Below, one piece after another: positions 31,386 through 53,195 of a stretch of DNA of 64,000 nt (position 1 is the stretch's first letter; the number at the start of each line of letters is the position of its first letter). This DNA comes from Asterias amurensis (lineage: Eukaryota): assembly GCF_032118995.1 (NCBI RefSeq), contig NC_092661.1, forward strand, positions 19,526,621 to 19,590,620, written 5' to 3'. The notes beneath the pieces are model-generated. The model did not search any database. It saw only the letters and a program-made list of their open reading frames with translations, and had not been told where the DNA came from. The translations under genes were made by a program, and so were the position numbers.

Positions 31386-31489
31386 CTGTTTTAGGAGACA
31401 GAGAAATGAAGGCAGGTCAGAGCACAAGTAGCTCTACATGTAACATGCTGAATGCTTAGTCCACTCTTTCGGCTGTGTGCAAAAAGTGT

Positions 31490-31612: not shown

Positions 31613-32329
31613 TCCTTTTCACATATAAATGAGGGTTTAGTGGCAAAATCCCACAGAAAACTTTTACTAAAGCTTTTAAATTAGTAACTTTGACACTTCT
31701 AGATACTTGCTAGATTTAATTTTGCCGTGATCGGGACCGGAATTGGTGGCATTCGTTTCAGAAAACACGTACAATCAACTGAAAACACGATGCACAAACC
31801 ACATGGTGCCGAGTATCCTCACAGTACACGGTCGCCCACTGGTGGTACATCCATGCAGTATGTACAGCACATGCACAATGCACACAGTCGTCCAAAGTCC
31901 ATTCTGACCAAATCTCTGCACGCTGTGATTGGCCGTTGATGGCTGTTAATAATTCCATATTCATTACGTTCTTGACTAGACTTCAATGCAGTACATGTTC
32001 ACGAACGGAGTAAAGAATTGCCCCACGTTGTGCATAATGACTGTAGACTGTGCACAATGTACAGCCTTGGACAACCAATGACATGGACAACTTTTGCCAA
32101 CAGAGGGCGTTGCGAGGCAAAAGTTCATTGAATTATTTCTCGATGTGCATTGTTGACTGATCGTTTATTCATGAAGATTTTGTTGCAAATAGAATTCAAA
32201 ACATGTTCAAATCAACCGACCCCCTGACCACGAAGTCATTAAAGTTGTTGTTGATGGAAAAGGGATAGTTTAAGGTAAAAATTCAGATATAAAATCCTCA
32301 AAAAAGCAATTTTAAGGGCTTCACTTTCG

Positions 32330-32356
32330 TGAGTTTTTTTTTTTTTTTTTTTTTTT
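32330..32356. repeat. poly(T) tract, 24 nt
   Basis: Homopolymer in RPL24 intron 2; possibly the poly(A) tail of a - strand retroposon. Confidence 0.8.
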
Positions 32357-32374
32357 CGTTTTGAAAGTTTTGTG

Positions 32375-32480
32375 TATAATTACATGTGGGCTAGTGAAAA
32401 AACCTGCGGGCGATCGAGAATTTTGGTTGACTTGCCCGGCGGGCGATTGAAAAAAAAAGTTAAGGGAAACCCCTGACTGT
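32375..32480. repeat. inverted repeat partner 2
   Basis: GGGCTAGTGAAAAAACCTGCGGGCGATCGAGAATTTTGGTTGACTTGCCCGGCGGGCGATTGAAA...CCCCTGACTGTG. Confidence 0.5.
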
Positions 32481-33627
32481 GCGAGCTTCGTGGTTCCGTG
32501 TATGTTTTGTACACAAATCACGGATCAGACCCGCCCTCTCGTGACGCATTCTCGCAAAACGAGGTCGGGTAATTTTCAATTATTGTTGGCAGAGGAGTAA
32601 CACATACAGTAGATAGGGAATCTGAATATTACGGTAAGAATTTATCATGTTAACAATTTTTGAGATTGCGGAGTGGATTCTCTGGTTGAAAGCATACACA
32701 TTGATATATCAAAAGACACATAGAGCCTAATTTTGGCGAGATTAAAAAAAAAAAAAAGGAGAGATTTCTGATTCCAAAATTCATTGAACCATGGGTCGTT
32801 GAACGCGTGACAGATGACCCTCTATGAGGTTAAGGGAGAAGATAGCCGGACGAAACCAAAATAGTTCTAGGAGTACACGTGATCCATCTAGCGACTAAAG
32901 CAGAATGAAACTCAATCTAGCTGATAGTAATTTTGTTTTGAACTTTCGAGGTTGGATGATGTTTCTTTGACTCACTTGAAATTGAATGTTGGCATAATAA
33001 TGCACTAGTGATTAGTACCAAAAATCAATCATTTTATAAATGTTTGAGCATAACCAACGACAGGAAACTTTATTCTCAGCATGATTAAACCTGATGAAAA
33101 TAGAGACCGTGAGTAAACTGCATAGCTTCTGCCACCGGTGCAGCTTGCACAATTTCGCGGTAAACGGGAATCAAAGTTGGGGAACGAAAACATATTTTTA
33201 TGAGGGTCGATAATGTATGACGCTACGATATAGTCCGAGGTAAGGCAACATTTTATCCCAAAAATAATTACTTTCTTTGTGATATTGACTGTCTATAATT
33301 CATTGTTAAATCTGATCACTAGTCCGACATTTAATGGTCGAAATTGCACAGAACTGTCTCCATAACTGGTCGGTGGCTCGGTCGGTCTGTATAGTAATCT
33401 GTAGTAAGTAGCATTACGACGATCGAGTGGAGCGGGCTGAATACGATTATTGCAACTTTTAGAGTCGTTAGGGCATGAATTGTTCACTTAGGGAGCATTT
33501 GGCAAAGAAAAGCGGGGATAACTCAATTAAAAGACCCTTTACTATTATATTAATGTGTTTAAAAAATTACAAATAAGACTACGATAAAAAGAGTAAAACG
33601 GCAGTAGGACGACTGTTACTAGCTCAC

Positions 33628-33703
33628 CTTGCCATCGATTCTTGCGAACCGGATGCCATGTCCGGCATGAATTTTGTACCCACTGAAATGGCACAACTCC
33701 TGC
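33628..33703 (-). CDS. RPL24: ribosomal protein L24, exon 2
   Basis: (K)[25 protein letters not shown] corresponds to the eL24 N-terminus ([26 protein letters not shown]). Acceptor ttttAG, donor GTGAGC. Confidence 0.85.
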
Positions 33704-33838
33704 CTAAAATAAAAACAAAATACAAAGAAATGTCAAATTCAAGAACTGAAATTTGAACAGGTATTACGAGAAATATATATTTTCCCGGTTTTATGGTGAT
33801 GTGGTGAGATTGAATAAGATCGGATTCCAGATACTTAC

Positions 33839-33843
33839 TTCAT
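33839..33843 (-). CDS. RPL24: ribosomal protein L24, exon 1 coding part (ATGAA|gtaagt)
   Basis: ATG AA followed immediately by donor GTAAGT. A start codon split by an intron is typical of ribosomal protein genes. 5'UTR about 25 nt. Confidence 0.7.
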
Positions 33844-33870
33844 TTTGACGACTTTCTATGGAAAAGGCTG
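33844..33870 (-). promoter_or_regulatory. RPL24: RPL24 5'UTR with 5'TOP-like start (CCTTTTCC)
   Basis: Minus strand reads CCTTTTCCATAGAAAGTCGTCAAAATG. A C followed by a pyrimidine tract at the presumed TSS is the hallmark TOP motif of ribosomal protein mRNAs. Confidence 0.55.
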
Positions 33871-33889
33871 TAGGTCATCGTCCTGGCAT

Positions 33890-34170
33890 TAAACCTACAC
33901 AGGAGGGCGCTATGCCGATTTAACGGTGGCGATTTTATTTTTATGCAGAAAAATTAACGGTGGTGTTAAATACCGCCCTCATACGTTTGGACGTAAGTAT
34001 GTGACGTCACCATTCTGAAACGCAATGCATGACGGGACAATATCAAGGGTTAAAGGTCAATTGGTACTGCATAAACTTTAAATGTAAGAGGGGGCGCTAT
34101 TTAACCACACCGTTAAGTAAACTACCCTCAATTAGTCCATAGCGGGCGCTATTTAAGGACAACGTTACAG
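33890..34170 (-). promoter_or_regulatory. RPL24: RPL24 proximal promoter with three GGGCGCTAT...TTAA(C/G)G motif repeats and one TGACGTCA (CRE)
   Basis: Three spaced copies of GGGCGCTAT(G/T)..TTAAC/GG upstream of the TOP start, plus a palindromic TGACGTCA at about 34003-34010. Confidence 0.4.
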
Positions 34171-37985: not shown

Positions 37986-38067
37986 CTGTGATTGTTCAAT
38001 GTCATATATGGTGACACTGAAACCTGCGCCAGCAAAGATCAAGGCCCAACTCCTTCCAATCAGACCA
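37986..38067 (-). CDS. CRYL1: CRYL1, exon 2 (Rossmann GxGxxG)
   Basis: (S)[27 protein letters not shown] matches human [28 protein letters not shown]. Acceptor ttttttttacAG, donor GTAAGC. Confidence 0.85.
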
Positions 38068-38610
38068 CTGTAAAAAAAACAGAGGGAAAACATAATTCAG
38101 AAATGAAAAATGGTTGAACACGGCCCATGCATCACGGCCTTTCCCTGACTGATTCACTAGGCACCCCTAGTTGCGATAACGTAACCCTCCTCCCAATGGA
38201 GAAGCCGGCGGAGGAGGGTTACTGATAGCTCACAGCTCTCTCCTCCAGTAAAGTTGGGCTAAAATCATAGAGCTATATTAGCTCTTAGTAATAGTATATG
38301 GCTTCAGTTTCTACTCCTTTTTTAAGTCAGATTTTGTTGTTTTTTGTAATTTTTAATAATAATGAATATAATATCAGCAAATTTTTATCAAATTTAATCA
38401 ATTTTTTCATTTTTGTGCATTCATGCCTGCAGCTTTTCTTCTCTTTTTTAAGTCAGAGTTCGTTGTTTTTTGTAATTTTAAACAATATAATGAATTTAGA
38501 CACGCCAATTTATTTTAAGTCTTTTTAATTAACTTCTGTCGTGTATTTTGTGACATTTTTAATAAACCTTAGTTAGGGGGGCCTAATTGATAATGAATTG
38601 AATTGAATAC

Positions 38611-38684
38611 CTGCCAATAATTCCAATCTTTTCTTTTCTAGTTGATGCTGGTGGTGGTAGCTCTGCTGCACTAGAATCTGCCAT
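38611..38684 (-). CDS. CRYL1: CRYL1, exon 1 with start codon
   Basis: ATG GCA GAT TCT...: MADSSAAELPPPASTRKEKIGIIG(S), ending at donor GTATTC. Joins exon 2 in phase to give ...[14 protein letters not shown]. Total CDS 990 nt (329 aa), the same size class as human CRYL1 (about 320 aa). Confidence 0.7.
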
Positions 38685-38735
38685 TTTGTATCCACTTCCA
38701 GCAACGTTTGTTGTGTGGAGCCAAACTGGAACTTT

Positions 38736-38782
38736 TTGTTCTCAACTCAACCAATCAATCAATCAACTCAATCAATCAAATC
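38736..38782. promoter_or_regulatory. CRYL1: CAATCAAT repeat cluster (multiple inverted CCAAT boxes) just upstream of CRYL1
   Basis: CAACCAATCAATCAATCAACTCAATCAATCAAATCAAC lies 50-100 bp upstream of the CRYL1 ATG on the - strand; it reads as repeated ATTGG. Confidence 0.4.
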
Positions 38783-39689
38783 AACCCCTGCTTCAGTGCT
38801 TGTTGAAAACTTGAACTTGTTGGAACGTTGTGCGAGTTGTGGTTTGCAACTGAACTAGTTGAGACTGGCACAGTCCCTCCCATTGTTATCTTTCTCATCT
38901 CATTCATGGGGTCAATGATTTGGAAAAATAAAGATTGCACTTGTAAAAAAATATTGTAAAGCAGTAAACAATACACTTTTTGATACAGTTGACAAGGGGA
39001 ACGAGCGGAACTACATGATCTGGGTACGCGTTATGCTTCACGTCACGAACCCATTAATGCAGAACACAGTAAAATAAATGACCCCTGGATATACAGAGGA
39101 AAACATTACTAATATTGACCGTAAGGGGGCGTTATTGCTCGATGTTGAGTTGACGACGAAAGAGGGCGTTCTTGTAAAAGGTGGAGGTTTGACAGTTTTT
39201 GAAGTTTATTCCAACTCAATAAATCTTATCCAGATAGAAGCTACAAAACTGCTTTTCCAACAAACATGGGAAGTAGTTCAAGGTAAAGGCAGTATCCTCA
39301 GTTTTAATTTCTGTATTTTAATCCCCATGAAAACAAACAACATGTCAAAAATTAGGCTGTTCGTATGTAGTGCCCAGTTTCCGGACATTAGAACTGCTAC
39401 TCACCCGGCCTACTTTTAGGCTCCCTCGTGAGCCTTATAGGGGTCTTAATATTTTGGGCCTCCTCTTTAACGCTATTTGTTTTTATTAAAATCGGCATTG
39501 ATGGATGAAAGTTTTACGACCGTTAGCCACCAATAACTGAAGTTTCCTTTGTATATTGTAGTAAAAAAAAATTACAACAGTCATAACCAACAAAATTTTC
39601 CCAGACCCCACACACTCAAATAGACATAATGCTTGCATTTAATTTCCTTTTTGTTGAGTGAAGTTAAAAAACATCTTCAAAAAATGCAA

Positions 39690-40135
39690 CTAACTGCTCG
39701 GATACTCACTGTTCTTTTTCTGCCGCATCGCCAGTTTTTTTACTTCTCAATATATATGCTCAACGCTTTATTTTTTGGGTCACCAAGCGCTGAACCGCGG
39801 GTACAAGCCTATTGGATTGACGAACTGCCGCGGCCGAGTTAGACTAAAACCTTTCTGTGGAAGGGGTGTTACAGTTGGGCAGTGCGTGCAGCTATATGCG
39901 TGAACGGCGGGTATTGTAAACGGACAGCATTCACGCACTGCCGTACTGACTTTTAACACCCCTTTTACAGAATGGTTAAGTCCGACTCGGCTGCAGCTCA
40001 GCAGTTCCTCGATCTAGTAGGCTGGTGCTCGCGTGTACAGCGCTTGGTGACCAAAAATAAAGCGTTGAGCAAAGAAGTAAAAAAAAAAAGACTGTTTTTT
40101 TCAGTTGTTTTGCACTTAATGCTATTTTTGTTTTG
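39690..40135. mobile_element. foldback element B (about 200-bp inverted arms around a palindromic core)
   Basis: TTACTTCTCAATATATATGCTCAACGCTTTATTTTTTGGGTCACCAAGCGCTG pairs with CAGCGCTTGGTGACCAAAAATAAAGCGTTGAGCAAAGAAGTAA. The centre has GGGGTGTTACAGTTGGGCAGTGCGTG...CGCACTGCCGTACTGACTTTTAACACCCC. Confidence 0.7.
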
Positions 40136-40305
40136 CCTTGGCTATGTTATATTTGCCTTCCCAAAATAGCCAGTTTGCCGTTAATGATGATTTGTGGGAC
40201 ATAGCATTATAACAACAATCGGCATACATTTTGTAAACATTGAAATGGCATCCAGTATTTTGATTTTCTCAATTTATTTTTTAACCTTTGAACTTTTTAA
40301 ATTAG

Positions 40306-40400
40306 GGGAAAGAACTCTAAGGAAGAAAGCAGATCAAGTAAGCGTCATGTTAGCAGCAGTGGTAGCAGCGAGGACAGCAATTCAAGTAGTTCATCTTCAG
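40306..40400 (+). CDS. Lys/Arg/Ser-rich nuclear-type protein (unidentified family), Ser-rich exon; upstream exon(s) with the ATG not found
   Basis: Acceptor aaattAG. (G)KNSKEESRSSKRHVSSSGSSEDSNSSSSSS(E). Donor cagGTGATT. Only this frame joins the next exon in phase. The N-terminal exon is unresolved. Confidence 0.4.
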
Positions 40401-40724
40401 GTGATTTATTCTTGGCAACAAGAAACTTTATGAAATTATATTTCATTAATCAATATGACAACTCATGCTATTTGCCAGGTTTGCTGTTAAATTAAAATAT
40501 TCAAGGACACTCTCATTAGGGGGCTTGAGGATAGCACAAGGATTCTCAGTTGTGGACTTGGCCAACCCTTCCCCATGTAATCCCCTGGGTTTCTGGCGAC
40601 GCTACTGCTCTTTATGTATAATAAGGTTTTTACATACTATAATATCATAATCTTTGCTTGGGCATTTCTAAAATATCCCTGATATTTTTTTAAATTAAAT
40701 TTATTTCAAACTGTTCCCATGCAG

Positions 40725-40841
40725 AGTCCGAGTCAGAATCTAAGATTCACTTCAAGAAGCAGAAAGTAGACTCAGCAACTAAGAAGCAGCGGAAACGAGA
40801 AAAGAAACGAGAACGAGAGAAGAAGAAAAAGAAAGAAACAA
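40725..40841 (+). CDS. K/R/S-rich protein, exon (basic KRKREKK tract)
   Basis: Acceptor catgcAG. SESESKIHFKKQKVDSATKKQRKREKKREREKKKKKET. Donor aGTGAGA. In phase with the flanking exons. Confidence 0.5.
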
Positions 40842-41103
40842 GTGAGAATGGAATCATCTTAGTTTTTAAAGATTTGAAATAACAAGTTCCGCTTGAATAA
40901 TATTGAATAAAAGTGTTGTCAGATCTGATTATTTCCTTTGAAGAATTTTGTTTGTGTTTTTTGTAAGGAAGTGAGTTAAAAAAGCAACCAAGAAAATAAC
41001 TACTTGTAATTTCGTAACTAATTGTTTTGTCATGTCATACAATTCAATGCATTCTCTGCACAATCAAACCCAAAATACTTAATATTCTTTATTTTTTGTA
41101 CAG

Positions 41104-41168
41104 ATAAGATCTCCAAGGATGACTTTTACCACAAAAGCACAGAGTTCAGATTATGGCTTGTTGAAGAG
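41104..41168 (+). CDS. K/R/S-rich protein, exon
   Basis: Acceptor tgtacAG. (N)KISKDDFYHKSTEFRLWLVEE. Donor GTAATT. Confidence 0.6.
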
Positions 41169-41285
41169 GTAATTTATACAGCATTTTCCCCCATACAAGT
41201 TAAACATCCAGAATAGTACCTTTTTATAATTTCTTGTCATCTCATGCCTATTAATTAATACATATTGTGTTTGTGTCACTGTACA

Positions 41286-41378
41286 GAAGGGCAAATACTT
41301 TGATCAACTTACGGGTGCAAAAGCCAAGAACTATTTCAAGAAATTTGTGAAGAGATGGAATGCAGGGAAGCTTTCAAA
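41286..41378 (+). CDS. K/R/S-rich protein, exon
   Basis: Acceptor ctgtacAG. KGKYFDQLTGAKAKNYFKKFVKRWNAGKLSK. Donor GTTAGT. Confidence 0.6.
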
Positions 41379-41526
41379 GGTTAGTATTAGGCCTAACTCC
41401 ATGATTAGGCATAGTTGGTATTTAGATTAATCTTTCAATACCTTGCCTTTTATTGTTCTATCCCTTACATGTTGTTCCATTCTTTTAAAAATTGTGTTCA
41501 CCAATGTTGCTGTTATTTGGGAAAAT

Positions 41527-41730
41527 AGACACTGGACACTATTGGTAATTGCCAAAGACCAGTCTTCTCACTTGGTGAATCTCAACATATGCATAAAATA
41601 ACAAACCTGTGAAAGTTTGAGCTCAATCGGTCATCAAAGTTGGGAGATTATGATGAAAGAAAAAACACCTTTTGCACACGAAGCTGTGTGCTTTCAGATG
41701 CTTGATTTCGAGACCTCATAATCGAATCCA
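41527..41730 (+). mobile_element. MITE family M1, 5' half copy (in an intron of the K/R-rich gene)
   Basis: Matches the left half of M1 up to the central hairpin. Confidence 0.6.
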
Positions 41731-41957
41731 TTCCTTACACTTGCCTGTAGCTTTGTAGGCCTACACACTCTATAGCTTTACAATTGAATCAGTTGTACAC
41801 AACCATGGATGATCATCGGAATGTGTAAATGATTTTTGATAGTGGTTAGTGGGCTCCCAATCTAAAGCAAGTAGAAGGGGGTTTTATGTTTATATATTTC
41901 AAATTCCTGCCAATAAGTTATATTTAATCTTTTCTTTCTTTCTTTTCTCTATTGCAG

Positions 41958-42020
41958 AAATTTTATCGAGGAATAGACCATGAGGATGCCAGAGCATCTC
42001 TGACTAAATATAAATGGAAG
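41958..42020 (+). CDS. K/R/S-rich protein, exon
   Basis: Acceptor tattgcAG. KFYRGIDHEDARASLTKYKWK. Donor GTGATT. Confidence 0.6.
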
Positions 42021-42198
42021 GTGATTATCTTTAGTTGGCTCTTTGTTTTTGCGGCTGCATTTATATATTATTCATGTAACTTTTTCTCAATTCATTTTTA
42101 TCCCAGACAGCCCCAAAAAGCTTGCAATCACTTAATTTGACCAAATTAGTTGTTTGATTTCACTTTAATCTCAGAAACCCTTTTTAATATCTCTTTAG

Positions 42199-42441
42199 TT
42201 TGCAGAGCGTCACACACCCACAAACATAAAGAAGCTTGACATTGCCAGCTACGATAACAGACATAATACAACGCTTAGTGGAGATCACATGACCCCAGTG
42301 GCTGATGGTCTCATGAAACCCAAGACCTTCTCAACCTTCGGCAAATCAACAGCATCGGGATCAAGAGATGACAGTGATCAAATTGGACCAAGTCGACCTG
42401 TACAAGGACCCGCAAGGCCAGTACAGGGACCTATGCGACCA
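42199..42441 (+). CDS. K/R/S-rich protein, exon with a threefold GP-R-P(V)Q repeat
   Basis: Acceptor ctctttAG. FAERHTPTNIKKLDIASYDNRHNTTLSGDHMTPVADGLMKPKTFSTFGKSTASGSRDDSDQIGPSRPVQGPARPVQGPMRP. Donor GTAAGT. The acceptor could instead be the tgcAG 7 nt downstream, but that breaks the frame. Confidence 0.55.
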
Positions 42442-42908
42442 GTAAGTTATCCAATTGTTGTAATATGTATGTGATATGGTAAGGTTTGCGGTAACACCAT
42501 TAATGACTATCTCTGAATGAATTGGGGTGGTTCTGATGAGAACTGTTGGTTTCAAATCGACGTTTTGATCAGTATGCTCTGCTTGTCTTCTGGAGACAAT
42601 ATATGTATGTGTTTTTCCTTCTGTTTGTATTCTCAAATGATGGTTGCAACCAGGCCTCAAAACAACCCACATCAATTGCCGTGGTGCCCAGTGCTTGTGC
42701 TGTGGTGCCCTCTGCAAGAGGAATACAAACTTAGATTTTCCCCATGGAAGTGCTCCTTAGCGGAGGAAAATTGCAGTGCCCCTTCAAAAGCGAAATTCAA
42801 GGCCTGGCTGTAATCATTGTGGTATAGTGTAAAACTACCGCTAAATCATTTTGTAGTGAATTTAATTATTTCAAAATCAATCATTTTTTTGTTTTATCCT
42901 TCTTTTAG

Positions 42909-43004
42909 CCATCTTCGTCACAAGCTGAGTATGAAATTACACAAGAGCAGAGAATGAAGCAACTCAGGAAAGAGCGAAAACAGTTTAGAGAACATGATAA
43001 AATG
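42909..43004 (+). CDS. K/R/S-rich protein, exon
   Basis: Acceptor cttttAG. PSSSQAEYEITQEQRMKQLRKERKQFREHDKM. Donor GTAAGC. Confidence 0.6.
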
Positions 43005-43280
43005 GTAAGCCCAACATTGAAAACTCTCTTCAGCAGATAGTATAAATGTGGTGCAAACAGCTCCAGAGTCTCAGAGTATGGGGTAGTAGTAAATTTATGC
43101 TGAATGAGCATGTAGCGGATTAATGGAATTATGGTAGGAATTCTTTTACACTTGGACCATTGTATGTTCACAGTGACAGTGATTGTAACGAAAGCCAAAA
43201 CAATAAAGAAGCCACATTTTTTTGAACCGATTTTATCTTTCTAACCATCTTTGAAATGAATTGAATTTGTTTGTGTGCAG

Positions 43281-43411
43281 GTTATGGAAGAGCTTGCACC
43301 GAGGGCTACTGGCCATGACGCCAAGATTGAAAAGAGATTGCTCCGAGCAGAGCAGAGAAAACGAAAAGGAAACAGCCCTGAGACAAGAGAGTCATTCCTG
43401 TATGGGGGAAA
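43281..43411 (+). CDS. K/R/S-rich protein, exon
   Basis: Acceptor gtgtgcAG. VMEELAPRATGHDAKIEKRLLRAEQRKRKGNSPETRESFLYGG. Donor GTAAGT. Confidence 0.6.
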
Positions 43412-43477
43412 GTAAGTAATAATAACATCCCTAAAACAGTGCAATTCCAAAGATATGGTTGTTGTTCTTTAAAAGCA

Positions 43478-43636
43478 CGGGACACTATTGTTAATTACTC
43501 AAAATAATTGTTACCATAAAAACTTACTTGGTAACAAGCAATTGAGAGCTGTTGATAGTATAAAACATTGTGAGAAACGGCTCCCATTAAAGTAATACAG
43601 CATAGTTTTTGAGAAAGAAGTATTTTTGTATTGTTG
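43478..43636 (-). mobile_element. MITE family M1, partial copy
   Basis: Matches the right arm of M1 (GGACACTATTGTTAATTACTCAAAATAATTGTTACC...). Confidence 0.5.
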
Positions 43637-43795
43637 TTATCCAAGAGAAATTCTGTTAGCCCAGAGCCTCGGTTTTTATGCACATTTTGGTTTCTTTTCA
43701 AGAAGACAGCAGCTTGAGAAAAGACTACTTTACAGGATTCTCTTTTAGGATGAAATGACTCTATTAAATGTTTCCGTTTATCCCTTGACCAATAG

Positions 43796-43919
43796 GACTG
43801 ACATTCAGTCACAGGTAGATGCACAAAGGCATAAAAAGGAGCAGAGAAAAGAGCATTGGGAGAACAAAGCTGCCACCAAAGCAGAGGAATATAGGGCGAA
43901 GGAAAAGGCAAAGATGTCT
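43796..43919 (+). CDS. K/R/S-rich protein, exon
   Basis: Acceptor ccaatAG. (K)TDIQSQVDAQRHKKEQRKEHWENKAATKAEEYRAKEKAKMS. Donor GTAAGT. Confidence 0.6.
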
Positions 43920-44274
43920 GTAAGTACAAAGTGACATAATATCTCTTGCAATGGACCCTTCCCATGAAATATGCTAATTACATTTACGCATGCATACAGA
44001 CCCTGTTGGTTGGCAAACGCCATAGAGTTGTGCACTAAGCAGACGCGCAATCGCGTCTGCGTCACGCACCCATTAGCCGTGTACAAAACAGCGCGATGTT
44101 CCCTCATTTTGCCAACCAAAACGTTAGTGCGCATGCGCTATTTGCAATTTACATATTTCATGGGAAGGGTCTATTCAGCTACCTACCAGACCTGTTGAAC
44201 AATGTCATCAGGATCTTACAATGACTTATAAATGCGCTTTACATTAGTGCCTTAGTCATTGGGCCAATAACATT

Positions 44275-44530
44275 CCTGTTATCTTTCTCAGCTCGCTGGG
44301 AGTATAACAGCGCGGGCTACCGTACGCTGTGCTCAGTAGGCTTTTTTATACACAATATCTACCTCTACCCTGGCAGGTACCCGTTTATATATACCACTGG
44401 GTGAAGAGCAATTCAATGAAGTGTCTGTTCAAAGACATGAGTGTCATGACTAGGATTCGAACCCACATCCCTAAGGCCTAATTACCAGAACTTGAACTTC
44501 ATGATCTTTACTGCTCGGCCATGACACCCT
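44275..44530 (-). mobile_element. SINE family S2 (tRNA-Ser/Leu-like head GTCATGGCCGAGCAG...GGGTTCGAATCC)
   Basis: tRNA type-II-like head on the - strand. Its body shares GAATTGCT..TCTTCACCCAG and TGTATACTCCCA blocks with the 56758 copy. Confidence 0.55.
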
Positions 44531-44806
44531 ATTGAAACATGTGATGATTGGGCAACTTCTAAAGATTAACCAAACCTAGTGACCTTAATGAACTATTGTG
44601 TAAAATAGTCTGCATCCAGTTTATGTTTGCCAGTGGCACTGCATCTTGCTGGCAAACAAAATGCAGGGAGGCATCGAACAATCATATTCAAATCAGCAAT
44701 TTCAGTAGACCAAATTGGTGGAGGTTTATCTATCATCCCCAAAACTCTGAAAAGCATTTCCACAAATATCTTAAACTTATTGTTTGAACTATGTTTTTGT
44801 ACACAG

Positions 44807-44857
44807 GCACTGTTGGAGCTTGCAAGAGCAAACAAAAGTGAGAATGCACTCTGGTGA
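44807..44857 (+). CDS. K/R/S-rich protein, terminal exon with stop
   Basis: Acceptor gtacacAG. ALLELARANKSENALW*. The terminal exon assignment is tentative. Confidence 0.4.
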   Translation, partial: ALLELARANKSENALW

Positions 44858-45574
44858 TTGACATGAGGGATGATGAACAAAGCACAGAGCTTACTGATGA
44901 TGAACTTTAACAAATACCACAGCTCCATGTGTCTTTCCAAGTGTACATACATACCAACAACTTCTATTACTTCAGGTATCCGTATATTTATGTTTAAGTT
45001 TGAACTCTCTTTGATCTTAGTGATTGGATTTGTTGGGAATTGGCAACTAGGTGCAACAAAAGATTGTCAACAATTTTGTTTTTAAATTTTTTAATTACAG
45101 TATTTGGATTACAGGTTTTGTCTAGGTTTATTTTAGATAATATTTTATGGGTGTCCCTAATGACTTCAAATTGTGTATTAAAGATTTTTTATTTTTGTAA
45201 CATAATAGACTTTTATTTGATACATGTCATCAAATTTGTAAAGGGTTATTCCTTGCTTCGTTAGAATCGGTGTACAATAGCTTATGGGCTACTAGAAGAA
45301 AAAACCTTATTAGAAGAAATTACCTTTGCAAGAACGTTAACTAGTTAAGGGTGGCAAAGATCCAAACTTGTACACACATTTCATGTAGTTTCATGGCAAA
45401 ATCATTATTTCAGATTTAAACGCATGACTCGACAATCAGTCTTATTTTTACTTTCATGAATTTTTAATCAAACACTTCTAGAAATGCAAATGCTCCTGTA
45501 TCAAATAATCCATTCTATCTGGTATCCAGGCTCCCAATCACAACCTGCTATGCAGATTGTTTGATAGGCACCAG

Positions 45575-45960
45575 TTAAAGACATTGGACACTATTGGTAA
45601 TTGTCAAGGACCAGTCTTCTCACTTGTTGTATCTCAACATATGCATAAAATAACCAACCTGTGAAAATTTGAGCTCAATTGGTCGTCGAAGTTGTGAGAT
45701 AACTATGAAAGAAAAAACACCCTTGTCACACGAAGTTGTGTGCTTTCAGATGCTTGATTTCGAGACCTCAAATTCTAAACTTGAGGTCTCGAAATCAAAT
45801 TCATGGAAAACTACTTCTTTCTCGAAAACTACTTCACTTCAGAGGGAGCCGTTTCTCACAATGTTTTATACTATCAACCTCTCCCCGTTACTCGTTACCA
45901 AGTGAGGTTTTATGCTGCTAATTATTTTGAGTAATTACCAATAGTGTCCACTGCCTTTAA
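45575..45960 (+). mobile_element. MITE family M1, full copy
   Basis: Both TIRs with flanking TTAA. Confidence 0.8.
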
Positions 45961-48900
45961 ACCATGAGACTCACTTTGATTCCCACAGTTGTGTGAATAA
46001 GAAATCCAAGATGGCTGCTGTGAGAGAAAGTCTGTATCAATGATATAATTTAAGACTTTTTAGTCTACAATTTATTTTTCGTTTGTCTATATTAATAATA
46101 GTTTGGGATGTACAGTTTAATTGCTTTGACAAATTTCTTATTTAAGATGAATTAAAACAATAACAAACAGTAATAAATGTTCCTAATGATTCATCTTTTT
46201 GGTGTGGCTTACAATAACAACATGACAACGTATTAGAGTTTCAATGGTTGTAAGTTTATTTCATTTTTGTTCAGGGATTAATTTTGGTGGTGGTAATGGC
46301 CTTGAAAATGTTCTTGTATTCTTCCAAAAATGAGTGTTCCTTTGCTTAATTACTTGAAAATTAACGTTGGATCAAATATTGAGTAAGATAAATGAGCAGA
46401 TTGAGGACAACAGTAAATTGCATTGACAAATAGAATTGCAATGTGTAAATATGTTTGGATACAAAATAATTGATCGTTTGGTTGAGAGTAAATAAGAGAG
46501 AAAAATAACAGTAAATATCAATCATACATGTCTACAATAGTGACCTTGGCTAAGTAACCAATAAGACATGCTAAAACCTTTAACTTTCCAATACTTGTTA
46601 TATCACAAATATACTACACCACCAAGACATCCCCAACAAAATTCAAAACTCTGTAAAATTAAACAAGACTAATAAGTGCATGACAAAAATGCATACTGAA
46701 GAGATTGGCACTGAAACTTTGAAGGGGTATGGTAGCTTTGAAGTGGTATGGTAACCTCTTAAACCACTCCAGAAAGGTTCATTATTGTGCATTTCATTCA
46801 AACAATGCATTGCTTAACATATAACAAGTTTACACCAAAATGTATGAAATATTTCAGGGCTTTTGCATATTTTGGTTCAGAATTTTTACTTGTATGTTGG
46901 CTCGCACCTTGTTTTCACATATATAAATAGGTTTTTTAAAGAGTTCATTGGGCCGATTTAGTGTGAATCAATCTTAATTGCTAAGCAAAGTGTGATGTCA
47001 CAATACAAATCACTATGGTAATACTGACACTCATCTTAAGATTAATCTTATTGGTGCCTTATGAAATCCAGCTCTAGTTAAAGAATTTTGACAGATACGT
47101 AGTTTTGATGTATTCAGGCTCATGTGAGATAATAACTCCATTATTACTGGTTCACAATGGCGTATTAGTTCAAACCATTGCTACTTGTCCCATATACTAC
47201 AGTTGTGTTTAAGTGATAAATAAAGGACTCCCACATTGTGACTTGTCCCAATCCATTATTATTGAAAGCCTTCTGTTACACAGATTACATCACACACGCT
47301 TGGTTTGGGAGTCCACATAGAACCTTCTTTGATAACAAAAATATGGCCATATGCAAAAAATAGTTCATACCTCGACGTTTCAACTCGCCTAGCAGAGTCT
47401 TTCTCAAAGGCTAAAGGAACTTAAATGTTGACATATCAACCTTTTATTTCAAGTCTTTCATTTCAATGTAGATTTGTGTACAAACATGCACAGTTAGACT
47501 GTGTTCATCTGTGTTGATGACTACAATATAACTTAATGAACTAAACCACTATTTTATAACTCCATATTTACGATAATCTTAATCCCCACAGCATGAACCA
47601 GAGAAAAGTAGAAAATGTTATCAAACCGATAGAAAATTGTTAAAAAGATTATTTAGTTTTGTACTTTTCAAATTAATTTATTGCTAAGGTCAAGTTATCC
47701 ATACTTGTAACACAAGCTGCAACAAATTAAAAGTTTGAACCACTTTCATAAATTTGATATGATATCAATACTGAACGACGCTGATATCACTGCTGGAACT
47801 TTCAACACACTTGATCATAAAAAGATGATTCTACATCAACACCACAATTACCTGAAGGCCAATCCCACAAAACTTTAAATTGACTGTGAAATATCTAAAT
47901 ATATCCTGATAAGATACAACCCATACCAAGTATAACAAATGACATCCCTCTACCAAGTACATTGATGTAAATACAAAAAGGTGAAAATATATATTTATAC
48001 ATTTGTAAAATGCATATACACCAAACTCCACTTGTAAAAAAAAAAGTCAGCTGACAATACTAAATATAATTCTACAGAAAACACACATATCTCATTGAGA
48101 TATGAATCTGTCAGACTTTAAAAATTGGATTACAAATTAATAAGAATGTCATCAGTTTATGTGCACATTATTTCATTACATCATAACATCCCCTTGTGAG
48201 ACCAGCTTCATTTTTATATTGTGTTGTTGATGGAATGTTAAAAGCCGGTCTTGAGCCAATATTACATTGTTATGCGGAAATCGCTCAAAAGTACCATCAA
48301 ATTCAACAGTAACAATGGATAAAAAATAACTAAACAATTATTTATTCTTGCTTTTTTAATAGTATTGGCCCAGCTTTATCAACGCAACTGACCACTGAAA
48401 TCAAAATAGTATAACCATTTTCTGTATACATAATTTTTTACCGAAGTATATTCAAAATTCATTCCAAAATACAGATATATATTGATAAAATATTTAAATT
48501 CCATATACACGCAGATACTTTTGTTCTGTCCATAACACAAACAATGGGGTTTGTTATTACTTGATGCAGAATTGTAAAAACTAAAACATAATCAATATTT
48601 AGTGTGTCTTTGAGACATGTCCATGTAACCATGATAACTACAACAAACAATACATGAATAGGTGACCTTCAAAAATGTATTCAATATTTTACATATTCAC
48701 ACAATTCAGCAACATTAAGTGAGTTTAAAAAATGTTGATATACAAGAGTATTAATAAACTGATCACACAACCTTTCAAAAAACTCTCTCCAAAACTATAG
48801 GCACTGTTTGTGTATTATACAAATAGATAACATTTAATCAACTTTTCTTTATCTACCAATATACCTGGTTTAAAAAACTGAGAGAGACCACAAAAATACT

Positions 48901-49358
48901 TAGTACTAATCCTTTAAGTTCCATTGATTTTCATGATTATGCTCGAAAGTGGCAAAGCATGACAGCACATTTGACATAACTTGCATAAAATTTGCATTCA
49001 TTTGCATGGTAATAGAAAGTATTCAGAAACAAAAAACAACAGATCACAATATTTTTCTGACTCTACCCAAATACAGTTTGACCATAATTTTTTCAGCATA
49101 GAATGGATGAAAAGAAAACGGATGAAATCTCACTTACAAAAAAAAAACAAATGATGGCAAGCCTCTTTGAGGCAGTAGGTCAATCTAGTTGAAAAACAAT
49201 TACATAAACTGGCTATAAAATAAATTTACCCCAAAGCATCACCATATCTCTTAATGAAACCAACCAATGACATGGAGTGTATTAACAGCTCAAGGTAATA
49301 CAGTATAACTCATCTGATTGGACATAATTTCCTTTAAAGAATATATCTTCACGACAGA

Positions 49359-49512
49359 CGGCCAATCCTCACAGGTCTTCTAGAAGCTGTAGGTAGAAAG
49401 GTACTTGCCCAAGCTGTCTTAGTAGTTTGTTGGTCTTGAACATCACAGGGCAGTCCAGAGAAATGCAGCCATGTGTTCCCTGCTCACTAAAATTGCAGCA
49501 ACTTGCACAAAT
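49359..49512 (-). CDS. REV3L: REV3L (DNA polymerase zeta catalytic subunit), terminal exon with stop
   Basis: ICASCCNFSEQGTHGCISLDCPVMFKTNKLLRQLGQVPFYLQLLEDL* matches human ICKNCTGCFDRHIPCVSLNCPVLFKLSRVNRELSKAPYLRQLLDQF* (CysB / Fe-S motif). Confidence 0.85.
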
Positions 49513-49782
49513 CTATCAGAAAAAAACAAAACATCAACACAAATCAACTTGTGTGGCAACACAAACCCTCACTAACCAGAATTCCCATCTAGCCTTTGAG
49601 TAACACTTCGCTAGCGTGGAAACACAAAGCTATTAGTAATTGCTTTCATTTATAGCGTCAGTCTTTCACTCGGTTAGCAGTTTGCAACAGCTAAGTTATT
49701 TTCTGATTAAAACTTTGTTTGGTAAACATAAATCTTGCTGAGTTAACTGGCAGCCTGAGGTCAATAACTAATCAAGAGCTAC

Positions 49783-49944
49783 CTTGGCAATGTCTTGCTG
49801 CGCTTTCTGCCATTGCTGAACCCGACTCATGAGGGCGGTAGACGTGACTTGACTTTTACTCTTACATTCATCGCAGATACTTGTCTGGGTGACTTTCTCA
49901 CAGATGACGCAATTCAAACTGACAAAGTATTGGGATATCGTACC
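49783..49944 (-). CDS. REV3L: REV3L exon (C-terminal zinc-finger CysA region)
   Basis: GTISQYFVSLNCVICEKVTQTSICDECKSKSQVTSTALMSRVQQWQKAQQDIAK matches human GTISQYFTTLHCPVCDDLTQHGICSKCRSQPQHVAVILNQEIRELERQQEQLVK. Confidence 0.85.
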
Positions 49945-50309
49945 CTGAAAATTGAAAACAGTTTCAGATGACAGAATCTCTAAAGATAATAAAATAAAGA
50001 CAATGGCTACAAAATACTAATCCTGGAGAAAATGAAATGTAAAAGGATTTTGTCTTCACACAAAACTGAAAATAATCCCAAAATCTGTTGATAAAGAAAC
50101 CAAGTAGAGGGTGGTCTACCAATAGATCACAGGAATGGAGTTTTGATTATCCAACTGTCATTGGACAATTGGTTTGTTTGTTAGTTTCAAATAAGCCAAT
50201 CACTGAGAAGATGAGCCAACACTTTGGCAGTTTCCATGTTTTGTTTTCTTCCTATTGGCTAACTGATGTTTCAAAAGATGTCTTATTTAAAATAAAAAAA
50301 GTGTTAAAC

Positions 50310-50477
50310 CTTCTTCCCAGGGGTGCCAAGCTGATGGTGTGATGTCACCCTTTGCCACCGTGGTAACTCCTGATACCACTGCATGGTGTCCACTCCAAGC
50401 AATCCAAATACCCTGTTAAGGGAGGGTACCAGTTGACGTGTCAAGTAGTAGGTTGTGTTCAATCTTAGGCTCGGATC
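50310..50477 (-). CDS. REV3L: REV3L exon
   Basis: DPSLRLNTTYYLTRQLVPSLNRVFGLLGVDTMQWYQELPRWQRVTSHHQLGTPGKK matches human DPTLRLNATYYITKQILPPLARIFSLIGIDVFSWYHELPR. Confidence 0.85.
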
Positions 50478-50746
50478 CTTAGAAAATAAAAACAACAAAC
50501 TCTGATGAACTAAATTTATTAAATTGTGCCATAATAAATAACTCAAAACTTTTGTGGGCATCGGATGTTAAATCTTTCCACAACAAAAAAGTGACAAGAC
50601 AAGAAAACTTAGTGAAACAAAGTTATAGAAAAGTTAAGAAAACTTCCTGAAAAATGAAGACAAAGTATATTAAGACTGCTGCAAACTACATGCAATGGTT
50701 GAAACACACATTGGTCACAACCACATTTACTCATCATTGATTTTAC

Positions 50747-50873
50747 CTCAAGAACTTGACTTGGAGTGCGTACAAGCTGAATAAGAGGCAATCCAGGACT
50801 GCCGTACACAACAACATAAGGCACTCTCTGACCAACTCGAGGCTCTGCACGACGATCAACGGCAAGTAGACGT
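50747..50873 (-). CDS. REV3L: REV3L exon
   Basis: (R)RLLAVDRRAEPRVGQRVPYVVVYGSPGLPLIQLVRTPSQVLE matches human KMLTYDRRSEPQVGERVPYVIIYGTPGVPLIQLVRRPVEVLQ. Confidence 0.85.
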
Positions 50874-51381
50874 CTAATTCAAATTAGAAGAAAAAAAAAT
50901 GGATAAAACAATTACTCTAATGATTCAGGCATATCTGCCCAACTACAAGATTTTCAATATACTAATGCTTAATATTAATTCTTTAGCATTTCAATTTTAA
51001 TCTCATTAAACAAATTCTGCTCTATTAAAAATTTTTAGCTGCCAGCCCTGCCCTCTTGTGGCTTTCCCCCAATTCTGACCTGTGAGTATCAGCTGGAAAT
51101 GGCAAAGTATACATCACAATTATACAGTTTATGTACTCTTTGGAATGGTATAAAGTTTTTGGGATGTGTTTATTTACAATGCAGTAAACAATGAATGTTT
51201 ATCATAGAGTACTACATAGGCTTAGGTAGGAACGGCACTTAGTGCCATGGCCAGTCAGGTGGAATAATGAAAAAAAAAAATTATTTACAACTTTTGCAAA
51301 ATCCCATCATTAGCCTTACTGCCATTGGCATTGTGTCTAAATCAGAATTCCTTCTTCAGAATATGAAGTAATAATCCGCAC

Positions 51382-51572
51382 CTTGTGATTTCAAGGGATG
51401 GTACACAAGCCCCCGGTCGATAGGAGTGCTGACCACGGTACTCCTTGGCAAATATCAGGTCTTGCATTGTTGCTTGGCCATCAAGGATCTTCAAGAACTG
51501 CTTCTGAACGTACTTCTTGACTTGTGAGACATCATGTGTGGTGAAGAGAGTCTTCAGAGCTTTCTCAAGTAT
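51382..51572 (-). CDS. REV3L: REV3L exon
   Basis: ILEKALKTLFTTHDVSQVKKYVQKQFLKILDGQATMQDLIFAKEYRGQHSYRPGACVPSLEIT matches human ILEKSLRLLFETRDISLIKQYVQRQCMKLLEGKASIQDFIFAKEYRGSFSYKPGACVPALELT. Confidence 0.9.
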
Positions 51573-52006
51573 CTATGAACAATTGGACCAAATTTATTAC
51601 CAATTGATCTTCAACATAGTTTATGTACTTGTTAAAAGATTTCAAAACGAAAGTTTGACAAATCTTGAGAGAATAAAAGCTTAATTGAAAGAGCATTTAT
51701 CATTATTTATTTATTTCTGAAAATAATACCAAAAGAACCCTTGAAAGTGCAATGTAGCACATTGGCCTGGCCTACCCGAATTTTCGATGTAAGAAGAAAA
51801 GCCTAACAGAAAAAAACCAGCCGAATGTGGAAGGAACTAAAAACCCAATCCACACACCAAAGGGGATGTGTGCCACAAAGGTCAAAGGCATAGAAGAAAC
51901 AACTAAGCTGACCTGTATGCATTTATAAAAACTATTAAAGTCTCATTCAATAAGTTTGTAGTTTCATTCGCTCTGGCAATATTTATCAAGACAAATCTCC
52001 TGTTAC

Positions 52007-52144
52007 CTTGCCAACAGCAGGGCATGAATCTCGACGCACTGTTTCAATTCCCTTAGCATCAAAGTCTGGTTCTGATTGGTCAGGAGACTCGTAGCTATAA
52101 CCAACATAACGCTTCTTGGATTGTAGGACACATGGATGGTAAAC
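52007..52144 (-). CDS. REV3L: REV3L exon (polymerase motif C region)
   Basis: VYHPCVLQSKKRYVGYSYESPDQSEPDFDAKGIETVRRDSCPAVGK matches human VYQPCVLQTKKRYVGYMYETLDQKDPVFDAKGIETVRRDSCPAVSK. Confidence 0.9.
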
Positions 52145-52358
52145 CTGCAAAACAACAACAAAAGAGAACAATGTACTTTCAGTATTTGACTACATAAAGC
52201 TGTCATTGTCAAGAACCAAATTTTATTCCAAATTGTAAAGTTCCAGTTTTTGTTTCATTGACTTCTAGAATACAGCGTTTATTAGATTAAGAGAGGAAAC
52301 TGGATGCCAGTGTTGAACCCTGACAATCTAAAATGAAGGCACGGGTATTTCAACTTAC

Positions 52359-52473
52359 CTTTTCCAGTTTCAGTTTGACAGGTTTAGGGTTCGCTGCAGT
52401 CACAGCATCTCGGATTTCTCGACCAACTTCAAAGGCTCGCTCCTTACTGGCTCCTTCAACTAACACAAACATA
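52359..52473 (-). CDS. REV3L: REV3L exon
   Basis: (S)MFVLVEGASKERAFEVGREIRDAVTAANPKPVKLKLEK matches human MFVLLKGATKEQSFKIGQEIAEAVTATNPKPVKLKFEK. Confidence 0.9.
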
Positions 52474-53085
52474 CTGAGGACAAATACAAGAGATTTTTTT
52501 TCCTTAAAATCAATCCAATGCCTTTGAAAAGGCAAGTTAATTCAAGAGAATTCACTGAAAATCTTCAGGCTAACAGCAACTGTAAACTTCTTCAACTATG
52601 ACTACAGAGGGAGTAAAACAGAAGAGTGACTCTGATACAATACACTCTTTCCCTTGCCTTGGAGAAAAACTATTTTTACATCAAACTTAAAGTTACAACA
52701 ATTTTCTTTGAAGTCAAATGGGTCCACTCTTACAGCAACAGCTTGCACGCTACTTCGATAAGTGCAAACATACTGCACTAAAAGAATAAATACAAGATAC
52801 TTATAAAATAACAAAAGGTCCATTTTGAAATAGGGCTTGTTTTTAACCTTGCATGGTGGGAATACAATCTAGAAAAGTTTGCAGAGACACCATGTACGTA
52901 AAGTCTCTGTGTGAGTTGTTGTGGTTATGAGAAGAACTGGTAGTTTACCAAGTTGTTAAAACTCTAGTTCTTCTCAGAGATCCACCACAACTCAAAAAGA
53001 GGTTTTATGTACTGTACAAGGTGTCTCTGCAAACCACACTAGTTTAAGAAACTGCTTATAACTTCAGAATGTCTCCAAAACCAAC

Positions 53086-53195
53086 CTGTCTGTGTCCCCA
53101 TACACTACTCTAGCTCCCCATTTCTTGGTTGTTTCTACAAGATGTATGGCTCTCTCCAACGTCTCACGCCCCTTCCGTACAACACTGTCACCAAC
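53086..53195 (-). CDS. REV3L: REV3L exon (contains YGDTDS catalytic motif)
   Basis: VGDSVVRKGRETLERAIHLVETTKKWGARVVYGDTD(S), the family-B polymerase motif C. Confidence 0.9.

What the first reader, a model, noticed from the sequence alone, without database searches (positions are those of the whole stretch)
40306..44857. Unassigned Lys/Arg/Ser-rich gene with a triple GP-R-P-V-Q repeat; 5' end not found
Nine in-phase exons with canonical splice sites encode SSSSSS-ESESE-KKQRKREKKREREKKKKK, then DDFYHKSTEFRLWLVEEKGKYFDQLTGAKAKNYFKKFVKRWNAGKLSKKFYRGIDHEDARASLTKYKWK, the tract IGPSRPVQGPARPVQGPMRP, and a KE-rich coiled-coil-like tail. The composition suggests a nuclear or spliceosome-associated protein, but I cannot place it in a named family from memory (GPALPP1-, NKAP- and CWC-type proteins were considered). 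The exon carrying the ATG was not found between 38690 and 40300, where foldback element B sits.
Basis: partly seen in the sequence, partly recalled or inferred. Interest (0 to 1): 0.5.

Follow-up and report, generated by a model that had tools for sequence, protein, structure and literature searches.

The report
Starfish SCI1-family nuclear protein gene
This is an ordinary starfish gene that public databases already annotate; it encodes a basic, mostly disordered protein of the SCI1 family found across eukaryotes, and its "missing" first exon is a 17-base exon at 39266-39282.

Summary
The exon chain is real and its outer coordinates are exact. Within 40306-44857 there are ten coding exons, not nine. 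The missing start is a 17-nt exon at 39266-39282 (ATGGGAAGTAGTTCAAG|GTAAAG, MGSSSR) that joins in phase.

The 11-exon product (364 aa) is identical at every residue to RefSeq XP_071800787.1, "uncharacterized protein [Asterias amurensis]". It is 99% identical to A. rubens XP_033635657.1, which is misnamed "corepressor interacting with RBPJ 1-like".

[quoted passage not shown] The family spans animals, choanoflagellates, fungi, an amoebozoan, green and brown algae, an oomycete and a haptophyte. No vertebrate member was seen.

The GPxRPVQ repeat is the local form of a conserved GPxxP motif that reads GPALPP in hemichordate orthologues.

Foldback B lies in intron 1, not in the promoter or 5'UTR. 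The promoter region is a 581-bp head-to-head interval shared with an HADH-like gene.

A nuclear role linked to the spliceosome or nucleolus is inferred only from plant SCI1. The finding is already known and of low interest.

The parts
38685..39265 (.). Head-to-head intergenic interval (581 bp between the two start codons). Presumed shared promoter region and 5'UTR; the transcription start site is unknown.
   Evidence: A minus-strand HADH-like gene starts at 38684 (MADSSAAELPPPAS...). It matches the called 3HCDH gene in the A. rubens locus. The promoter role is inferred.
39266..39282 (+). Coding exon 1, 17 nt: ATG GGA AGT AGT TCA AG | GTAAAG (MGSSS + first two bases of the Arg codon).
   Evidence: It joins exon 2 in phase. 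It is identical in the A. rubens reference, where the annotated CDS starts at the same base. RefSeq proteins start MGSSSRGK, and Patiria and Acanthaster start MGSNSR.
39283..40305 (+). Intron 1 (GT..AG), which contains foldback element B.
39735..40085 (.). Foldback B: an imperfect palindrome with collinear inverted-repeat segments, 39735-39888 against 39932-40085. It is intronic.
   Evidence: five collinear arm pairs, 88-100% complementary. It is also present in A. rubens, where the alignment is contiguous.
40306..40400 (+). Coding exon 2: basic then Ser-rich N-terminus (GKNSKEESRSSKRHVSSSGSSEDSNSSSSSS).
40725..40841 (+). Coding exon 3: acidic-Ser tract (ESESES) and the Lys/Arg tract KKQRKREKKREREKKKKK (aa 57-74, about 40781-40834). 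Presumed nuclear or nucleolar localisation signal; predicted helix 53-75.
   Evidence: The localisation role is inferred.
41104..41168 (+). Coding exon 4: first helix of the SCI1 hairpin (ISKDDFYHKSTEFRLWLVEE).
41287..41379 (+). Coding exon 5: loop and second helix of the SCI1 hairpin (KGKYFDQLTGAKAKNYFKKFVKRWNAGKLSK).
   Evidence: Invariant columns F115, F118, V119, W122, N123 and L127.
41958..42020 (+). Coding exon 6: end of the conserved core (KFYRGIDHEDARASLTKYKWK).
42199..42441 (+). Coding exon 7: predicted disordered linker with a conserved FSTFGK motif, ending in the proline motif repeat.
42385..42441 (+). GPSRPVQ-GPARPVQ-GPMRP repeat (aa 213-231). This is the local form of the family's nearly invariant GPxxP motif. 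The third unit runs into the 5' splice site.
   Evidence: (G227, P228 and P231 nearly invariant).
42909..43004 (+). Coding exon 8: start of the C-terminal helical region.
43281..43411 (+). Coding exon 9: conserved EELAPxATGxxAKIEK and SPE..(L/F)(M/Y)GG motifs.
43796..43919 (+). Coding exon 10: Lys/Glu-rich long helix.
44807..44857 (+). Coding exon 11: ALLELARANKSENALW plus the TGA stop (44855-44857). The C-terminal (A/S)LW is seen in nearly all the animal and several choanoflagellate members examined.

Best explanation
Shown:
- The region is the Asterias amurensis orthologue of the SCI1-family gene (Pfam PF27660, SCI1_hairpin).
- It is a single + strand gene of 11 coding exons (39266-44857) encoding a 364-aa, 42-kDa protein with pI 10. 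The protein is 15% Lys, 12% Ser and 8.5% Arg.
- Its order of parts is: a predicted disordered Ser-rich N-terminus; a Lys/Arg tract; a confidently predicted helical hairpin (the only strongly conserved domain); a predicted disordered linker ending in GPxxP proline motifs; and long C-terminal helices.

Inferred, at roughly 0.4-0.5:
- By analogy with plant SCI1, the protein is nuclear or nucleolar, with the K/R tract as the localisation signal.
- It acts as a non-enzymatic adaptor. The hairpin and helices would dock onto RNA-processing or spliceosome-associated partners. In plants these partners are CDKG;2 (a homologue of human CDK11), cyclin L and RH35 (a DDX41 homologue).
- The Ser/acidic tract would offer phosphoregulation.
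- The likely output is modulation of splicing-linked control of cell proliferation.
For: Gene model:
- All splice sites are canonical and in phase.
- The product is identical at every residue to XP_071800787.1 from A. amurensis.
- The same 11 exons in the A. rubens genome translate exactly to XP_033635657.1.
- Between the two species, exons are 98.5% identical and introns 95.7%. There are 13 synonymous differences, 3 nonsynonymous ones and one in-frame codon indel.

Family:
- Every homologue carries PF27660.1, which names SCI1_hairpin.
- None of the residues that differ from A. rubens lies in the hairpin, so the hit on the A. rubens protein transfers directly.
- The hairpin is 47% identical to that of a green-algal member.
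- The depositors of a holothurian orthologue named it 'Style cell-cycle inhibitor 1'.
- An exhaustive HMMER search with the family profile found 2160 cluster representatives.

Structure:
- AlphaFold2 predicts helices 87-98 and 107-123 with pLDDT above 90.
- Residues 1-45 and most of 155-226 have pLDDT below 50.
- Helices 233-267, 274-292 and 309-360 form the C-terminal region.

Function by analogy:
- SCI1-GFP is nucleolar and is degraded by the proteasome at mitosis (PMC9013909).
- SCI1 binds NtCDKG;2, cyclin L and RH35 and co-localises with them in splicing speckles. Its network includes U2A', NKAP and CACTIN (PMC13552211 and PMC11720235, citing Pinoti et al. 2024).
Against: - No experiment exists for any animal or fungal member.
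- From memory, land-plant SCI1 is much shorter, about 150 aa. I believe it lacks the GPxxP and C-terminal helical parts, so function may not transfer.
- I could not obtain a land-plant SCI1 sequence. The link to it therefore rests on the Pfam family name, a green-algal bridge and a depositor's label.
- No relative appears in any solved structure, including spliceosome structures. This does not support a stable core spliceosome role.
- No transcript data for this species were available, so the transcription start and any alternative isoforms are unknown.
Confidence: 0.8

Rival explanations
1. It is a CIR1-like transcriptional corepressor, as the RefSeq name of the A. rubens orthologue says ('corepressor interacting with RBPJ 1-like').
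For: Only the RefSeq product name and a shared Lys/Arg/Ser-rich composition.
Against: No Cir_N or any other CIR1-related Pfam match at E<=1 in this protein. None at E<=0.1 in 36 family members. Orthologues carry a scatter of unrelated names: triadin-like, peptidyl-prolyl isomerase G-like, CWC22 homolog, ZC3H4-like, caldesmon-like. That pattern is typical of names driven by low-complexity similarity.
Confidence: 0.02
2. It is a GPALPP1-type (DUF3752) protein, with the GP-R-P-V-Q repeat as the GPALPP motif.
For: Hemichordate orthologues carry literal GPALPP repeats at the same position: RPVQGPALPPGS three times in Ptychodera and once in Saccoglossus. The motif class is therefore shared.
Against: No DUF3752 match in this protein or in 35 relatives. 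The conserved domain here is the SCI1 hairpin, which is not a feature of GPALPP1 (from memory).
Confidence: 0.04
3. It is an NKAP, CWC-type or SR-25 (ARL6IP4) splicing-associated protein.
For: A sub-threshold SR-25 match (20.3 bits, E = 4.6e-4) over residues 6-78. It is seen in 7 of 36 relatives.
Against: The SR-25 score is half the gathering cut-off of 40 bits and covers only the Ser/Lys low-complexity tract. There are no NKAP (SynMuv_product) or Cwc/Cwf domain matches.
Confidence: 0.02
4. It belongs to the same family but has a different mechanism. It would be a direct stoichiometric inhibitor of cyclin-CDK complexes, as first proposed for plant SCI1, rather than a splicing- or nucleolus-associated adaptor.
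For: Loss of plant SCI1 increases cell number and overexpression reduces it. SCI1 was hypothesised to inhibit cyclin-CDK complexes (PMC11720235 introduction; PMC13552211).
Against: The only CDK partner reported is CDKG;2, a homologue of human CDK11 and a transcription/splicing kinase. The proteins co-localise in speckles and the nucleolus (PMC13552211). Nothing was tested in animals.
Confidence: 0.15
5. The exon chain is an artefact: two genes, or exons never spliced together.
For: None found.
Against: Collinear full-length orthologues exist across eukaryotes. A 1154-nt transcript-type contig of a holothurian orthologue carries an uninterrupted 343-codon ORF. The product is exactly identical to a RefSeq model.
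Confidence: 0.01

Closest known systems
[quoted passage not shown]
   Same: Same Pfam family. Both have a Lys-rich basic N-terminal region followed by the helical hairpin with the D-D-[YF]-[YF]-x-K-x-x-E-F-x-x-W-L ... F-x-x-F-V-x-x-W-N-x-G-x-L ... Y-Y-x-G signature. Both are expected to be nuclear.
   Different: The starfish protein is 364 aa. Like the fungal, algal and other animal members, it has an added GPxxP motif region and about 130 aa of C-terminal helices. From memory, land-plant SCI1 is about 150 aa. A pistil-specific developmental role cannot apply to an animal. I made no direct alignment to a land-plant sequence.
GPALPP1 (GPALPP motifs-containing protein 1, DUF3752/PF12572)
   Same: Repeated GP-x-x-P-P type proline motifs in a charged, predicted disordered protein. 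Hemichordate orthologues of this gene have literal GPALPP repeats.
   Different: No DUF3752 domain. GPALPP1 lacks the SCI1 hairpin (from memory).
CIR1 (corepressor interacting with RBPJ 1)
   Same: Basic, Lys/Arg/Ser-rich nuclear protein. The RefSeq name of the A. rubens orthologue refers to it.
   Different: No Cir_N domain. The name is a low-complexity artefact.
SR-25 / ARL6IP4 (PF10500)
   Same: The Ser-rich plus Lys/Arg-rich tract gives a weak match (20.3 bits).
   Different: The match is below the 40-bit gathering score and confined to low-complexity residues 6-78.

Membership tests
SCI1 family (Pfam PF27660 SCI1_hairpin) | Significant match to the PF27660 profile | tested here: met
   PF27660.1 is precomputed for the A. 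rubens orthologue and for nearly all the homologues listed. One search names it SCI1_hairpin, unmarked, meaning E<=1e-5. The window protein is in the same 90% cluster, and none of its differences lies in the hairpin residues. The local Pfam copy lacks this model, so the window protein itself was not scanned directly.
SCI1 family (Pfam PF27660 SCI1_hairpin) | Two-helix hairpin fold over the conserved core | tested here: met
   AlphaFold2 on a 36-sequence alignment predicts helices 87-98 and 107-123 with block pLDDT of 92-96.
SCI1 family (Pfam PF27660 SCI1_hairpin) | Direct sequence homology to land-plant SCI1 (NtSCI1, At1g79200) | not tested
   No land-plant sequence could be obtained: the hairpin-only search returned only fragments, and the paper's sequences are images. 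Indirect support: 47% identity over the hairpin to the green alga Ostreobium (E = 1e-20), and a holothurian orthologue named 'Style cell-cycle inhibitor 1' by its depositors.
SCI1 family (Pfam PF27660 SCI1_hairpin) | Nucleolar/speckle localisation and binding of CDKG;2 (CDK11 homologue), cyclin L and RH35 (DDX41 homologue) | not testable with these tools
   Known only for tobacco SCI1 (PMC9013909, PMC13552211).
CIR1 | N-terminal Cir_N domain | tested here: not met
   No match at E<=1, and none in 36 relatives at E<=0.1.
GPALPP1 | C-terminal DUF3752 (PF12572) domain | tested here: not met
   No match.
GPALPP1 | Repeated GPALPP motifs | tested here: inconclusive
   The starfish has GPSRP, GPARP and GPMRP. 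Hemichordate orthologues have GPALPP. A short motif alone does not define homology.
NKAP | C-terminal SynMuv_product (PF06047) domain | tested here: not met
   No match.
SR-25 / ARL6IP4 (PF10500) | Score at or above the 40-bit gathering threshold | tested here: not met
   20.3 bits, over low-complexity residues 6-78 only.
CWC-type splicing factors (Cwc15, Cwc22, Cwc25 etc.) | Match to any Cwc/Cwf Pfam domain | tested here: not met
   None. No relative appears among solved spliceosome chains.

The most novel reading that the evidence does not exclude
The SCI1 family may be an ancient pan-eukaryotic nuclear factor. It has been studied only in flowering-plant pistils. It is kept in echinoderms, hemichordates, amphioxus, sponges, placozoans and a priapulid, but it would be lost from vertebrates, and none was seen among the standard invertebrate and yeast models either. 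If so, its general eukaryotic role is entirely unexplored in animals; that role might be control of proliferation through splicing factors linked to CDK11, cyclin L and DDX41. Starfish oocytes and embryos would be a tractable system in which to define it.
Probability: 0.3. Interest if true: 0.4.

Novelty: already known. Interest (0 to 1): 0.15.

Why it matters
For the scan, this closes the finding. The gene is real, complete, already in RefSeq and assignable to a Pfam family. The foldback is intronic.

There are two modest points of wider value.

First, public names for this family in animals are misleading. They are driven by low-complexity similarity and could be corrected to "SCI1-like".

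Second, the family is widespread across eukaryotes, yet it has been characterised only in tobacco and Arabidopsis and no vertebrate member was seen. The animal members are therefore a small, genuine gap in knowledge.

Tried and rejected
I reran it with the A. rubens protein as first row.
- A hairpin-only profile search, meant to reach named land-plant SCI1 proteins, returned only 4 unnamed fragments.
- The AFDB50 fold library was unavailable. Foldseek against the PDB gave nothing (best E = 6.5).
- Sequence and profile searches of PDB chains gave only chance-level hits.
- I tried to get NtSCI1/AtSCI1 sequences from the supplement of PMC9013909, but the sequences are held as images.
- Pinoti et al. 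2024 and DePaoli et al. 2012 are not held in the library.
- No paper mentions PF27660, SCI1_hairpin or IPR044688.
- Tandem Repeats Finder finds no DNA-level 21-bp repeat under the GPxRPVQ units.
- ARAGORN finds no tRNA in 38000-46000.
- CIR1, GPALPP1, NKAP, SR-25 and CWC-type memberships were tested and rejected.


Full report
**Observation.** I read 38000-46000 and rebuilt the exon chain by script. 40306 is the first base after an AG acceptor, and 44857 is the last base of a TGA stop. Within 40306-44857 there are ten coding exons rather than nine: 40306-40400, 40725-40841, 41104-41168, 41287-41379, 41958-42020, 42199-42441, 42909-43004, 43281-43411, 43796-43919 and 44807-44857. All have AG acceptors, every intron starts with GT, and the phases are consistent.

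**The missing 5' end.** Exon 2 begins with the last base of a split codon, so the start exon must end after two bases of a codon. At 39266-39282 the sequence acaaacATGGGAAGTAGTTCAAG|gtaaag provides:
- an ATG with A at -3 and G at +4;
- five codons plus two bases;
- a GTAAAG donor.

Joining it gives an open 1095-nt CDS of 364 codons plus stop. Three independent checks agree:
- The product is identical from first to last residue to RefSeq XP_071800787.1, "uncharacterized protein [Asterias amurensis]". This also identifies the window's species.
- In the A. rubens reference genome the annotated CDS starts at the homologous base. The 17-nt exon and its donor are identical there. The 11 homologous exons translate exactly to XP_033635657.1.
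- The Patiria and Acanthaster orthologues start MGSNSR.

**Conservation.** Between the two Asterias species, exons are 98.5% identical and introns 95.7%. There are 13 synonymous and 3 nonsynonymous differences, plus one in-frame codon indel. This is the pattern of a coding sequence under purifying selection.

**Surroundings.**
- A minus-strand gene starts at 38684 (MADSSAAELPPPAS...). It corresponds to the called 3-hydroxyacyl-CoA dehydrogenase gene in A. rubens.
- The two genes are therefore head-to-head, with 581 bp between their start codons. A shared promoter is inferred.
- In A. rubens, an RPL24e-family gene lies further upstream and a REV3-like DNA polymerase zeta gene lies downstream on the minus strand. 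The window is collinear with that locus.
- Foldback B is real. Five collinear inverted-repeat segments run 39735-39888 against 39932-40085. It lies inside intron 1 (39283-40305) and is also present in A. rubens. It is not in the promoter or 5'UTR of this model.

**What the protein is.**
- The local Pfam copy gives only a sub-threshold SR-25 match over the low-complexity N-terminus: 20.3 bits against a 40-bit cut-off.
- The large protein search found the A. rubens orthologue (99% identity). It also found orthologues in other starfish, sea urchins, sea cucumbers, a crinoid, a brittle star, hemichordates, amphioxus, sponges, a priapulid and many fungi. All carry PF27660.1.
- One search gives the name of that family: SCI1_hairpin.
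- Name look-ups add Trichoplax, Sycon, several choanoflagellates, the amoebozoan Mastigamoeba, the green alga Ostreobium, a brown alga, Saprolegnia and a haptophyte.
- An exhaustive HMMER search with the family profile finds 2160 cluster representatives at E<=1e-3.
- One holothurian orthologue was named "Style cell-cycle inhibitor 1" by its depositors.
- The starfish hairpin is 47% identical to the Ostreobium one. The C-terminal half also aligns, at E = 2e-10.
- No vertebrate, tunicate, arthropod or nematode member appeared among the named hits. Amphioxus, sponges and choanoflagellates were readily detected, so loss in vertebrates is likely. It is not proven here.

**Anatomy.** The alignment and the AlphaFold2 model give this order of parts:
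- a predicted disordered Ser-rich N-terminus (residues 1-45, pLDDT below 50);
- a Lys/Arg tract, KKQRKREKKREREKKKKK, predicted as helix 53-75;
- the hairpin, helices 87-98 and 107-123 with pLDDT above 90, carrying almost all the invariant residues (E90, F91, R92, W94, F115, F118, V119, W122, N123, L127, Y132, W149);
- a predicted disordered linker with an FSTFGK motif;
- the proline motif region;
- long C-terminal helices (233-267, 274-292, 309-360), with conserved EL(A/V)PKATG(H/R)EAK and SPE...LMGG motifs;
- a terminal (A/S)LW, seen in nearly all the animal and several choanoflagellate members examined.

**The GP repeat.** The "triple GP-R-P-V-Q" tract is the starfish form of a nearly invariant GPxxP motif (G227, P228, P231). 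Copy number varies: one copy in most fungi, three to five in starfish, and four in hemichordates, where it reads RPVQGPALPPGS. At DNA level the units are not a recent duplication. The third unit's would-be Val codon supplies the GT of the splice donor.

**Rejected memberships.** No Cir_N, DUF3752, NKAP (SynMuv_product) or Cwc/Cwf domain matches this protein or any of 36 family members. RefSeq and UniRef give orthologues a range of unrelated names: CIR1-like, triadin-like, PPIG-like, CWC22 homolog, ZC3H4-like, caldesmon-like, "splicing arginine serine-rich 12". The best explanation is similarity between low-complexity Lys/Arg/Ser tracts.

**Single gene.** Full-length collinear orthologues across eukaryotes show that the parts belong to one mRNA. 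So does a 1154-nt transcript-type contig carrying the whole 343-codon holothurian ORF without interruption.

**Mechanism.** Nothing is known experimentally for any animal member. For tobacco and Arabidopsis SCI1, the papers report the following:
- nucleolar localisation in interphase, 14-3-3 binding and proteasomal degradation at mitosis (PMC9013909);
- interaction with CDKG;2, the homologue of human CDK11 (PMC11720235);
- interaction with cyclin L and the DEAD-box helicase RH35 (a DDX41 homologue);
- co-localisation in splicing speckles, and a network including U2A', NKAP and CACTIN (PMC13552211, citing Pinoti et al. 2024);
- loss increases cell number and overexpression decreases it.

From this and the anatomy I infer the following, with roughly 0.4-0.5 confidence. 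The starfish protein is a nuclear or nucleolar non-enzymatic adaptor. The K/R tract would target it, the hairpin and helices would dock onto RNA-processing partners, and the Ser/acidic tract would be a phosphoregulatory site.

Three points weigh against simple transfer of function:
- From memory, land-plant SCI1 is much shorter.
- I could not align it directly.
- No family member appears in any solved structure, spliceosomes included.

**Verdict.** The gene and its family are already in public databases, so novelty is "already known" and interest is low. The residual point of interest is that this widespread eukaryotic family is unstudied outside plants, and no vertebrate member was seen.

Noticed in passing
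window 43950-44175 (intron 10): A foldback element of about 220 bp with 33-nt terminal inverted repeats, 88% complementary. It is absent from the A. rubens reference: window 43952 and 44173 map to adjacent bases there (L001 14780 and 14779). It therefore looks like a MITE-type insertion that differs between the two Asterias species.
   Followed up: partly
window 41527-41722 (intron 5), 43468-43585 (intron 9), 45574-45961 (downstream): Copies of a dispersed repeat (core ...GACACTATTGGTAATTG...). Each matches several places in the 25-kb A. rubens locus at 82-90% identity, on both strands. The 45574-45961 copy looks like a full palindromic element. Intron 5 is also about 100 bp shorter than in A. 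rubens.
   Followed up: partly
window 38610-38684 (- strand): First coding exon of a 3-hydroxyacyl-CoA dehydrogenase (HADH-like) gene (MADSSAAELPPPASTRKEKIGIIGR). It is head-to-head with the SCI1-like gene, with 581 bp between the start codons, which suggests a bidirectional promoter.
   Followed up: partly
window about 46700-53700 and about 30900-34100, by collinearity with L001: In A. rubens the neighbours are a REV3-like DNA polymerase zeta gene downstream on the minus strand and a ribosomal L24e-family gene further upstream. The window aligns collinearly with that locus at 87-98% identity.
   Followed up: no
whole window vs L001 (A. rubens LR699102.1): The window is not the A. rubens reference. 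Introns differ by about 4% plus many indels. The exact protein match identifies the source as Asterias amurensis.
   Followed up: yes
homologues P0108-P0111 (Atractiella, Collybiopsis): Some basidiomycetes carry a second, divergent hairpin protein (EFRxWLxEER.INPE....FxxFVEDYNTATLPHxKYY). It matches the profile only weakly, and one of the four lacks the PF27660 annotation. It may be a paralogous or related family.
   Followed up: no
window 44290-44540 (intron 10): A stretch whose reverse complement contains a tRNA-like box B (GGTTCGAATCC), suggesting a tRNA-derived SINE. ARAGORN calls no tRNA there.
   Followed up: partly
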